A DNA stretch of 38,453 nt, from positions 1 to 38,453 of the forward strand of contig SOHS01000110.1 in NCBI GenBank assembly GCA_004377135.1, in the 5' to 3' direction. A program made the translations under genes and the position numbers. The first letter of the stretch is position 1. Each line of letters starts with the position of its first letter. The stretch is from Dehalococcoidia bacterium (GTDB lineage Bacteria > Chloroflexota > Dehalococcoidia > GIF9 > AB-539-J10). Below are positions 15,296 to 21,548 of the stretch, in pieces. Below the pieces are notes generated by a model that saw nothing but the letters and a program-made list of their open reading frames with translations, made no database searches and was not told the origin of the DNA.

Positions 15296-15586
15296 TTATT
15301 TTATCCTTGCCTGTTCAGTTATTTTAGCTTTGGTGATATGGCCTCTGAATGTCCTGGTAGCCGCAAATTCTGCCAATTTATGCCCCACCATATTTTCAGT
15401 GATGAAAATGGGCACATGCTTTCTGCCATTATGCACTGCAATAGTATGACCTATCATTTGAGGCAAAATAGTAGAGGAGCGAGACCATGTCTTTATCACT
15501 GTCTTTTCGCCCGAATTATTGAGCGCTTCTATTTTCTTAAACAATTTAGCATCGCAAAAGGGCCCTTTCTTAAGTGACCGTGACAT
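15296..15586 (-). CDS. rpsS: 30S ribosomal protein S19
   Basis: 96 aa, starting [10 protein letters not shown], with [24 protein letters not shown]-like block. Confidence 0.95.
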
Positions 15587-16409
15587 CTTCTTGCCTCCGT
15601 TTGAGAATCATTTTGTCTGATGTTTTACGACGACGTGTCTTAGCCCCCAAAGCTGGCTTTCCCCAGGGAGTTTTCGGATGCATTCCTCGCGGAGCTCTGC
15701 CCTCCCCACCTCCATGTGGGTGGTCACGAGGAGTCATAGCAGAACCCCTGACCGTAGGCCGCCAACCTGACCATCTTCTCTTTCCAGCTTTGCCTAACTT
15801 TATATTTTCGTGGTCAACGTTGCCTATCTGACCAATAGTAGCCCAGCACTTTTGATGAAATTTACGTAGTTCACCCGAAGGGAGTTTAAGTACAACATAT
15901 TGGCCCTCCTTGCTTATAATTTGGGCAGAACTCCCTGCGCTATGAACAAGCTTTCCTCCTTTGCCTGGCTCAAACTCAATATTATGCACTAAAGTTCCCA
16001 CAGGAATAGATTCCAACGGGAGAGCATTCCCAAGTTTTATATCAACATCCTCGCCTGCCTGTATAGTTTCACCCAACTTGATGCCCAAAGGGGCGATTAT
16101 ATAGCGCTTTTCTCCATCAGCATAATGAATTAGGGCAATGCGAGCTGCCCTATTAGGGTCATATTCAATGGAAGCTATTTTTCCAGGAACGGTAATTTTA
16201 TCCCTCTTAAAATCGATAAGGCGAAGTTTCCGCTTACTGCCGCCACCTCGATGACGCACAGTTATAACACCTCGGCTATTACGCCCTGCTTTCTTTTTCA
16301 GCGGCACCAGTAAGGATTTCTCAGGAGCTACCTTGGTTAACTCTTCAAAAGTAGCGCCAGACATAAATCTCCTGCCCGGAGAAGTTGGATTATAAGTCTT
16401 TAATCCCAC
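15570..16409 (-). CDS. rplB: 50S ribosomal protein L2
   Basis: 279 aa with a GTG start preceded by AAGGAG. Contains [14 protein letters not shown]. Confidence 0.95.
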
Positions 16410-16419
16410 GAATCGCTCC

Positions 16420-16515
16420 TTATTTGTGCGTCCTTTGCCAGCGAGTTTTTTTAAGAAGTTTCTTATGTCTGTGTTTGGACATCTTCTTTTTTCTCCACTT
16501 AACGACTGAACCCAT
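16420..16515 (-). CDS. small basic protein resembling ribosomal protein bS22 (AURKAIP1/COX24-like), unannotated
   Basis: Hand translation gives [31 protein letters not shown] followed by a stop. The ATG overlaps the rplW stop (TAATG) and GAGGG lies 8 nt upstream. Its stop is embedded in the rplB Shine-Dalgarno. It closely resembles the mycobacterial bS22 sequence as I remember it ([33 protein letters not shown]). Confidence 0.7.
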
Positions 16516-16823
16516 TATATACCCTCAAAGAAAGTAATTTTGTGTCCCGGTGCCAAGGTAACTATTGCCTTTTTCCAAGGTGAGCTAGTTACTTGCCTCC
16601 TGCCAAATCTTCTTGTCTTGCCAGGCACCGTCATTACATTGACTTTATTTACCTTTACCTTGAAAGCTTGTTCCACTGCCTCCTTAATCTGAGACCCGGT
16701 AGCCTTGCTAGCAACCTTAAAGGCATATTTATCTCTCTCCTTAAGCGAAGTAGCCTTCTCTGTAATTAAAGGACGCCGCAGAACTTCATAAAGATGCAAT
16801 TTATTTACCCCAAATTTGCTCAA
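16515..16823 (-). CDS. rplW: 50S ribosomal protein L23
   Basis: L23 core LYEVLRRPLITEKA. The ORF-track start (TTG at 16823) overlaps rplD by 23 nt. An alternative TTG at 16799, 1 nt after the rplD stop, is equally plausible. Confidence 0.9.
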   Translation of the reverse strand: MSKFGVNKLHLYEVLRRPLITEKATSLKERDKYAFKVASKATGSQIKEAVEQAFKVKVNKVNVMTVPGKTRRFGRRQVTSSPWKKAIVTLAPGHKITFFEGI

Positions 16824-17424
16824 TGTTGCGTATTGCCGGTACGGTGGCTACCAATATTTCATAAGAAAGTAAATCCAATACATTAATTAGGTTCGAAGGA
16901 AGGACCTTAACTTCAGGCAAATTAGCCGCTGATTTAACCACATGTGACGTGGACTGAGCAGTAAGAATCAAAGTGGAGGAATCGATGCCAAGCGAGGACA
17001 GAACATTTATCATGTCTTTTGTCTTTGGTTCCTCAAAATCAAGTTCCTGCAACAGTCTTATATTTCCTTCTCTAACTTTAGCAGAGAGAAGGCATTTCAA
17101 AGCTAACTTCCTCATTTTCCGGGGCATCGACTGGCGATAGGTGCGCGGCTTGGGGCCAAAAACTACCCCACCTCCCCTAAGCAGCGGTGATTTTATATCA
17201 CCCCTTCGCGCTCTGCCAGTATGCTTTTGGCGATAGAGTTTTCTTGTGCTCCCCTTAACATCTCCCCTGGTCTTGGTAGACACAGTACCATGGCGTCTAT
17301 TGGCTAATTGGCCGACCATTGCTTGATGAACTACCGCTCCATTAAAGGGAAGATTAAAAACAGCCTGGCTAAGCTCTATCTGGTCAACAACTTCACCGTT
17401 TAAAGTATAAACTGGCACTTTCAT
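16801..17424 (-). CDS. rplD: 50S ribosomal protein L4
   Basis: 207 aa. Contains [35 protein letters not shown]. Confidence 0.95.
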
Positions 17425-18065: not shown

Positions 18066-18374
18066 CTACAACTTAATATCTATCTCTACTCCAGATGCCA
18101 GGTCAAGGTGACTCAGGGCATCTATAGTCTTGGAACTCGGCTGCAAAATATCAATTAACCTCTTATGGGTCCTGATTTCAAACTGCTCCCTGGAATCTTT
18201 ATCAATATTAGGGGAGCGAATAACGCAAAATTTTTCAATATCAGTGGGTAGAGGTACCGGGCCAACCACTATAGCCCCGGTGCGTTCCACTGTTTCCAGT
18301 ATTTGCCTTACTGCTTGATCAGCCAACTTATGGTCGAAGCTTTTAATTTTGATACGAACTTTCTGGTCAATCAT
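18066..18374 (-). CDS. rpsJ: 30S ribosomal protein S10
   Basis: 102 aa. Contains [16 protein letters not shown]. Its ATG overlaps the fusA TGA (ATGA). Confidence 0.95.
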
Positions 18375-21519: not shown

Positions 21520-21548
21520 AATTTAACACAAGGTAATTAGCGTGTCAA
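21520..21548 (-). promoter_or_regulatory. promoter of the str/S10/spc superoperon (TTGACA-N17-TAAATT)
   Basis: Minus strand reads TTGACA CGCTAATTACCTTGTGT TAAATT, about 135 nt upstream of the rpsL ATG. Confidence 0.45.

What the first reader, a model, noticed from the sequence alone, without database searches (positions are those of the whole stretch)
16420..16515. Unannotated 31-codon bS22-like ORF coupled between rplW and rplB
The 105-nt rplW-rplB spacer is unusually long for an S10 operon. On the minus strand it encodes [31 protein letters not shown].

- Its ATG overlaps the rplW stop (TAATG).
- Its TAA is embedded in the AAGGAG Shine-Dalgarno of rplB.

The peptide is near-collinear with mycobacterial ribosomal protein bS22 as I remember it ([33 protein letters not shown]).

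bS22 has been seen in actinobacterial and Bacteroidetes ribosome structures. A copy wired into the S10 operon of what looks like a Chloroflexota genome would extend its distribution. It would also be missed by any minimum-length ORF caller, and it is absent from the supplied track.
Basis: partly seen in the sequence, partly recalled or inferred. Interest (0 to 1): 0.6.

Follow-up and report, generated by a model that had tools for sequence, protein, structure and literature searches.

The report
bS22 ribosomal mini-gene inside S10 operon
The 31-codon frame between the L23 and L2 genes is a real, strongly conserved gene for the tiny, already known ribosomal protein bS22 in an uncultured Dehalococcoidia bacterium; only its position inside the S10 operon is unusual.

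Summary
The ORF at 16420..16515 (-) exists exactly as described. It has a TAATG overlap with the rplW stop, and its TAA runs into the AAGGAG Shine-Dalgarno of rplB.

It matches NCBI's curated bS22 model end to end (57 bits, cut-off 34). It aligns without gaps to bS22 chains from solved mycobacterial and Cutibacterium ribosomes.

All 41 relatives searched have it. All 40 relatives' loci inspected show rplD-rplW-bS22-rplB. Within the genus pN/pS is 0.09.

In the class sample it was found in 38 of 121 genomes, and only part of the class carries it in the S10 operon. Other Chloroflexota and 77 Actinomycetota loci encode it elsewhere. Class relatives without it at this site mostly have a 0-40 nt rplW-rplB spacer.

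The gene is not new to databases. The identical protein is a called gene on at least 15 public contigs. Near-identical ones are named [quoted passage not shown].

No paper in the searchable library links bS22 to Chloroflexota or to the S10 operon. This scan has already found the same thing in at least 8 other genomes.

Verdict: a sound annotation catch and an ordinary member of a known family, with a modestly interesting clade-specific gene order.

The parts
16420..16515 (-). Gene for 30S ribosomal protein bS22: 31 codons plus TAA, ATG start.
   Evidence: ORF. NF047430 scores 57.2 bits over its full length and PF08213 scores 31.7 bits. It is the only match in the genome. Within the genus pN/pS is 0.087.
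16513..16517 (-). TAATG: the rplW stop codon and the bS22 start codon share one base, a signature of translational coupling.
   Evidence: Sequence. The overlap is conserved in all 25 genus-level sequences. Public gene calls show L23 ending and the 31-aa gene starting on the same base.
16416..16422 (-). TAAGGAG: the bS22 stop codon fused to the Shine-Dalgarno of rplB, 6 nt before the GTG at 16409.
   Evidence: Sequence. In all 25 genus-level sequences the stop (TAA, TAG or TGA) is followed directly by GGAG.
16515..16823 (-). rplW (L23), the upstream neighbour. The longest ORF starts at a TTG; public calls for the same gene use a 94-aa start further in.
   Evidence: PF00276.
15570..16409 (-). 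rplB (L2), the downstream neighbour, with a GTG start.
   Evidence: PF00181, PF03947.
16801..17424 (-). rplD (L4), two genes upstream of bS22 (directly upstream of rplW) in the same operon.
   Evidence: PF00573.
18066..18374 (-). rpsJ (S10), the first gene of the S10 block. Its start overlaps the fusA stop.
   Evidence: PF00338.

Best explanation
The ORF is the structural gene for ribosomal protein bS22, a 31-residue, very basic, helical peptide.

By homology with solved mycobacterial and Cutibacterium ribosomes, it should lie in the 30S pocket formed by 16S rRNA helices h27, h44 and h45 next to the decoding centre. There it also touches 23S rRNA as an extra intersubunit bridge.

In this Dehalococcoidia lineage the gene sits inside the S10 operon between rplW and rplB. 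Its ATG shares a base with the rplW stop, and its stop abuts the rplB Shine-Dalgarno. It is therefore most likely co-transcribed and translationally coupled with L23 and L2, which ties its output to that of its operon neighbours.

- Shown: the ORF, family membership by curated profile, collinearity with experimentally placed bS22, conservation under purifying selection, conserved gene order and coupling signals, a single copy per genome, and short empty sites in relatives.
- Inferred: ribosome binding site, co-transcription, coupling and stoichiometry.
For: - Curated equivalog NF047430 scores 57.2 bits (cut-off 34) over 1-31 of 31 positions, E 1.3e-15. PF08213 scores above its gathering score.
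- phmmer hits PDB bS22 chains at E 5e-6 to 6e-5. A profile of 20 window and locus sequences hits them at E 2e-13 to 1.5e-10, and mitochondrial mS38 from E 3e-6.
- There is one match in the genome.
- 41 of 41 genomes of the genus and order have it. All 40 relatives' loci checked show rplD-rplW-bS22-rplB.
- In 25 genus-level CDSs, all distinct at the DNA level, the variable columns by codon position are 9, 5 and 25, with pS 0.50, pN 0.043 and pN/pS 0.087.
- The same peptide family is conserved in other genomic contexts, so the protein itself is selected, not merely the spacer.
- The AlphaFold2 model has mean pLDDT 93.5 and shows helix 2-23, a break at residue 24 and helix 25-29. This agrees with the bent helix described in PMC10618245.
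- No promoter-like or terminator-like site and no Rfam family lies between rplW and rplB.
- The function of homologues is described in PMC10081302, PMC10085706 and PMC10618245.
Against: - There is no expression, proteomic or structural evidence from any Chloroflexota.
- bS22 is dispensable in M. smegmatis (PMC10081302), and it was not found in about two thirds of the class sample. It is therefore not a universal requirement.
- Position 16 is a Lys that contacts h44 in M. smegmatis. In this genus it varies between R, Q and K, so details of the rRNA contact may differ.
- Foldseek found no structural match, as expected for a 31-residue helix.
Confidence: 0.93

Rival explanations
1. The frame is translated, but its main role is as a coupling or relay ORF. 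It would pass ribosomes from rplW to rplB or regulate rplB, and the peptide itself would be unimportant.
For: The start overlaps the rplW stop, and the stop is fused to the rplB Shine-Dalgarno. Both features are conserved in the genus.
Against: - The amino-acid sequence is under strong purifying selection (pN/pS 0.087).
- The same peptide is conserved at unrelated loci in other Chloroflexota, Actinomycetota and other phyla.
- Sister families keep the gene with its own Shine-Dalgarno and a TTG or GTG start, without the overlap.
- Relatives without the gene couple rplW and rplB directly across spacers of about 0-10 nt.
Confidence: 0.03
2. It is a bS22-family peptide whose main role lies outside the ribosome, for example as a secreted or released cationic antimicrobial peptide.
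For: Synthetic C. acnes bS22 inhibits bacterial growth and cell-free translation (PMC10085706).
Against: - There is no signal peptide or export gene nearby.
- The gene is embedded in the core ribosomal operon.
- In every organism examined structurally the protein is a ribosome component.
Confidence: 0.03
3. It is a chance open frame in a purine-rich non-coding spacer, or a dead relic.
For: The ORF is very short and its composition is lysine-codon-rich and of low complexity.
Against: - The six-frame whole-genome search gives E 1.8e-14.
- The frame is intact in all 46 S10-type loci.
- Variation is concentrated at third codon positions.
- No Rfam family matches the region.
Confidence: 0.01

Closest known systems
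Actinobacterial bS22 (M. smegmatis MSMEG_0945, M. tuberculosis Rv0550B, Cutibacterium acnes; PDB 5o5j, 5o61, 8crx and others)
   Same: - It belongs to the same curated family (NF047430, PF08213).
- It is 62% identical and gapless over residues 1-29.
- It shares the MGSV.K.R.K.M..K.H.KLL..TR.QR pattern, size and charge.
- The predicted bent helix is the same.
   Different: - It has 31 residues rather than 33, and W at positions 7 and 26.
- Position 16 is R here (K in M. smegmatis, where it contacts h44).
- It is encoded inside the S10 operon. None of the 77 Actinomycetota loci examined has rplD, rplW or rplB within 2 kb, and the two inspected in detail have a proC-like gene upstream.
- There is no structural or genetic evidence in this organism.
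bS22 of other Chloroflexota (other Dehalococcoidia families, Anaerolineae and others)
   Same: It is an orthologous peptide, 55-90% identical and 30-32 aa long.
   Different: In those genomes the gene lies elsewhere, next to gap in several and next to proA- or proB-like genes in others. Their rplW-rplB spacer is short.
Mitochondrial mS38 (AURKAIP1 / Cox24p), C-terminal domain
   Same: It shares the Pfam domain, and the profile hits start at E 3e-6. According to the literature it occupies the same rRNA pocket.
   Different: mS38 is a protein of 110-200 aa with an N-terminal extension, and it is nuclear-encoded.
Bacteroidota and Borrelia bS22 (Fjoh_1533, bb0822)
   Same: They are tiny basic helices in the same 30S pocket. 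Like the sister families here, they were unrecognised in annotation and, in Borrelia, use a non-ATG start.
   Different: Their sequences are much more distant. C. acnes and F. johnsoniae bS22 are 37% identical according to PMC10085706. The profile of the Dehalococcoidia peptides hit only the actinobacterial-type and mS38 chains at E up to 0.01.

Membership tests
bS22 (NCBIfam NF047430 ribo_bS22, equivalog) | Full-length match to the curated model above its cut-off. | tested here: met
   The score is 57.2 bits against a cut-off of 34, E 1.3e-15, covering 1-31 of 31 positions. The six-frame genome search gives 54.8 bits at one place only.
bS22 / mS38 (Pfam PF08213 COX24_C, formerly DUF1713) | Domain match above the gathering score. 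| tested here: met
   The score is 31.7 bits against a gathering score of 23, E 1.4e-7. The same family is recorded for the identical public protein.
bS22 | Length of about 30-33 residues, extremely basic, no acidic residues. | tested here: met
   The peptide has 31 aa with 14 K/R, 3 H and no D or E.
bS22 | Collinear with bS22 chains that were placed experimentally in ribosome structures. | tested here: met
   The alignment to PDB bS22 chains is gapless over residues 1-29, at E 5e-6 to 6e-5 for the single sequence and 2e-13 to 1.5e-10 for the profile.
bS22 | Single bent alpha-helix. | tested here: met
   The AlphaFold2 model has pLDDT 93.5 and shows helix 2-23, a break at 24 and helix 25-29. 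This is a prediction only, and Foldseek gave no matches.
bS22 | Physically bound in the 30S pocket between 16S h27, h44 and h45, bridging to 23S rRNA. | not testable with these tools
   This needs purified ribosomes from this lineage (cryo-EM or mass spectrometry).
bS22 | Expressed. | not testable with these tools
Canonical S10 operon (rpsJ-rplC-rplD-rplW-rplB-rpsS-rplV-rpsC-rplP-rpmC-rpsQ) | rplW is followed directly by rplB. | tested here: not met
   Here and in 46 related loci a bS22 gene is intercalated and the spacer is 105-209 nt. The canonical adjacency holds in most of the 60 other class genomes, where the median spacer is 10 nt.

The most novel reading that the evidence does not exclude
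The S10-operon copy may reflect a single ancient relocation of bS22 into the most conserved operon of prokaryotes, in the ancestor of one Dehalococcoidia clade. That move would have made bS22 a core, stoichiometrically co-expressed ribosomal protein there.

The pro-gene-linked position shared by some other Chloroflexota and by Actinomycetota would then be the older state. The patchy distribution in the phylum would result from repeated loss. A decaying remnant may still be visible at the same junction in one family (f40).
Probability: 0.4. Interest if true: 0.4.

Novelty: new member of a known kind. Interest (0 to 1): 0.25.

Why it matters
This corrects an annotation gap: a ribosomal protein gene that sits at the lower size limit of gene callers.

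It adds Chloroflexota to the phyla that very probably carry bS22 in their ribosomes. In the literature searched, structural evidence exists only for Actinomycetota, Bacteroidota and Borrelia.

Insertions into the S10 operon are uncommon. This one is a clean synapomorphy-like marker for part of the Dehalococcoidia, and it is an argument that bS22 is made in step with its operon neighbours L23 and L2 there.

It does not open a new mechanism. The family, its binding site and its curated model already exist, and public records already call the gene.

Tried and rejected
- Foldseek against the PDB gave no match for the 31-residue model.
- The Rfam and promoter/terminator scans found nothing in the spacer. 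Site counts were at the level of shuffled sequence, so a regulatory-RNA reading of the spacer was dropped.
- The possible bS22 remnant in family f40 was tested with an HMM built from the collected peptides. It was the best of 4340 six-frame fragments but scored only 8.8 bits, E 0.4. It is kept as a hint, not a finding.
- Whether S10-type genomes form one clade stays open. The quick three-protein tree needs at least 3 changes but has weak backbone support. The AU test does not reject one clade (p 0.548; the constrained tree is 3.0 log-likelihood units better). This leaves one origin possible but does not show it.

Full report
**Observation**

On the minus strand, 16420..16515 is a 31-codon ORF encoding [31 protein letters not shown].
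- The rplW stop and the ORF's ATG form TAATG (16517..16513).
- The ORF's TAA (16422..16420) runs into AAGGAG, 6 nt before the GTG of rplB at 16409.
- The rplW-rplB spacer is 105 nt, and the ORF fills 96 of them.

**Identity**

- The peptide matches NCBI's curated equivalog model for bS22 (NF047430) over all 31 positions. The score is 57.2 bits against a cut-off of 34, E 1.3e-15.
- It matches Pfam COX24_C above its gathering score.
- It aligns without gaps over residues 1-29 to bS22 chains from solved M. smegmatis, M. tuberculosis and C. acnes ribosomes. Identity to these is 62%.
- A profile of 20 such peptides from the window and fetched loci hits those chains at E 2e-13 to 1.5e-10, and mitochondrial mS38 from E 3e-6.
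- A six-frame search of the window's 1.24-Mb assembly (179 contigs, 89.65% complete) finds exactly this one place, E 1.8e-14.
- AlphaFold2 with that alignment predicts a confident bent helix: pLDDT 93.5, helix 2-23, a break at 24, helix 25-29. This is the shape described for bS22 (PMC10618245).
- Foldseek returned nothing for so short a model.

**Conservation**

- All 41 genomes sampled from the genus (24 plus the window's own) and the order (16, in five families) have one match above the cut-off.
- In the 20 loci returned and 20 more fetched, the order is always rplD-rplW-bS22-rplB.
- The 25 genus-level coding sequences are all different at the DNA level but encode only 16 peptides.
- Variable columns by codon position are 9, 5 and 25. 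pS is 0.50, pN is 0.043 and pN/pS is 0.087.
- All 25 keep the TAATG overlap and a stop (TAA, TAG or TGA) followed directly by GGAG.
- Sister families in the order mostly start the gene at TTG or GTG behind their own Shine-Dalgarno, without the overlap.

**Distribution and gene order**

- In a class-wide sample 38 of 121 genomes have a match, consistently by family. Well-assembled single-contig or few-contig genomes are among those without one.
- Of the new class loci, 9 are S10-type and 17 lie elsewhere. Several of these sit next to gap, others next to proA- or proB-like genes.
- In a phylum sample of genomes at least 90% complete, 64 of 301 have a match. None of 22 loci from other classes is in the S10 operon.
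- Named public records place close relatives in "Dehalococcoidia bacterium" MAGs. L110 has rplB 94% identical to the window's.
- Family members outside the S10 operon also occur in MAGs labelled Nitrospiraceae, Anaerolineae, delta proteobacterium and Candidatus Servula.
- None of 77 Actinomycetota loci has rplD, rplW or rplB within 2 kb. Two were inspected in detail, and both have a proC-like gene upstream.
- The literature gives MSMEG_0945 and Rv0550B for mycobacteria and bb0822 for Borrelia.

**Empty sites**

I located rplW in 119 of 121 class genomes and fetched the junction in 60 genomes without bS22 at that site.
- Their rplW-rplB spacer has a median of 10 nt, and 49 of 60 are at most 40 nt.
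- The 26 S10-type genomes have spacers of 105-209 nt.

The long spacer is therefore explained by the inserted gene.

**History**

- In a quick IQ-TREE of concatenated L4, L23 and L2 (86 rows), all 26 S10-type genomes fall in one 43-row sector. Its SH-aLRT support is 85, which is weak.
- That sector also holds families with no bS22 or with bS22 elsewhere.
- The trait needs at least 3 changes on that tree, but the well-supported branches force only 1.
- An AU test does not reject a tree that holds all S10-type genomes together. p is 0.548, and the constrained tree is 3.0 log-likelihood units better.
- One origin is thus possible but not shown. Direction (gain at S10 versus loss) cannot be read without a root.

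In family f40, which groups with an S10-type family, three genomes may represent stages of loss:
- One genome has a 20-codon ORF, MGSQVKRRVKKRSKNAAKGI, at the junction.
- A second has the homologous stretch without an ATG and with a stop.
- A third has a 5-nt spacer.

Statistically the match is weak, at 8.8 bits and E 0.4, although it is the best of 4340 fragments.

**Mechanism**

By homology, bS22 lies between 16S h27, h44 and h45 next to the decoding centre and contacts 23S rRNA.
- In M. smegmatis it is dispensable, and its loss increases aminoglycoside sensitivity (PMC10081302).
- In Borrelia it is among the candidate essential genes.

Here, the shared base with the rplW stop and the stop fused to the rplB Shine-Dalgarno point to co-transcription and translational coupling. 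So does the absence of any promoter-like site, terminator-like site or Rfam element in the spacer. Coupling would give output in step with the neighbouring operon genes. These last steps are inferred.

**What is already known**

- The exact 31-aa sequence is in NCBI, JGI, ENA and Logan protein sets.
- Members of its 90% identity cluster are named [quoted passage not shown].
- The identical protein is a called gene, tagged PF08213, between L23 and L2 on at least 15 public contigs. One of these is a 1.62-Mb record.
- No held paper mentions bS22 together with Chloroflexota, Dehalococcoidia or the S10 operon. Papers still describe it as actinobacterial, Bacteroidetes or Borrelia.
- This scan has already reported the same gene in at least 8 other genomes, with the same conclusion.

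**Verdict**

The gene is real and is a plain member of a known family that public gene calls already capture. The clade-specific S10-operon position is a minor, apparently unpublished curiosity. Interest is low to moderate.

Noticed in passing
L167 (G075), L182 (G106), L183 (G147): rplW-rplB junction in class family f40: There may be a decaying bS22 remnant at the same junction. G075 has a 20-codon ORF, MGSQVKRRVKKRSKNAAKGI. G106 has the homologous stretch with the ATG lost and an in-frame stop. G147 has only a 5-nt spacer. The HMM score is weak (8.8 bits, E 0.4), although it is the best of 4340 fragments.
   Followed up: partly
L176 (G129, family f57) 171-743 and 1048-1446: This genome has a 132-aa ORF between rplW and rplB and a 190-aa ORF between rplD and rplW. 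Neither has a Pfam match. These are different insertions into the same part of the S10 operon.
   Followed up: partly
L129 (G090, family f13): 152-nt rplW-rplB spacer: The spacer holds a long imperfect inverted repeat (cattgcgagcgaagcgaagcaatc ... gattgccgcgcttcgctcgcaatg). It looks like a small palindromic repeat element rather than a gene.
   Followed up: no
window 18371..18374: The fusA stop overlaps the rpsJ start, and no tuf gene lies between them. The str and S10 blocks are therefore fused into one tightly packed unit. The best promoter-like site on this strand lies upstream of rpsL (21548..21520).
   Followed up: partly
L002-L017, L111, L115, L116 (sister families and other MAGs): Most bS22 genes of the sister families start at TTG or GTG. 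That makes them easy to miss or truncate in annotation, as happened in Borrelia.
   Followed up: partly
L023, L036 (Chloroflexota); L216, L245 (Actinomycetota); L040, L041, L044, L047: Outside the S10 operon, bS22 lies next to proA-like (L023) or proB-like (L036) genes in two Chloroflexota loci. It lies downstream of a proC-like gene in the two Actinomycetota loci inspected. It lies next to gap in four Dehalococcoidia families. The link to proline genes across two phyla may be the older location.
   Followed up: no
window 16468..16470 (codon 16 of bS22): Residue 16 is a Lys that contacts the h44 aminoglycoside pocket in M. smegmatis (PMC10081302). In this genus it is R in the window and varies between R, Q and K.
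   Followed up: no
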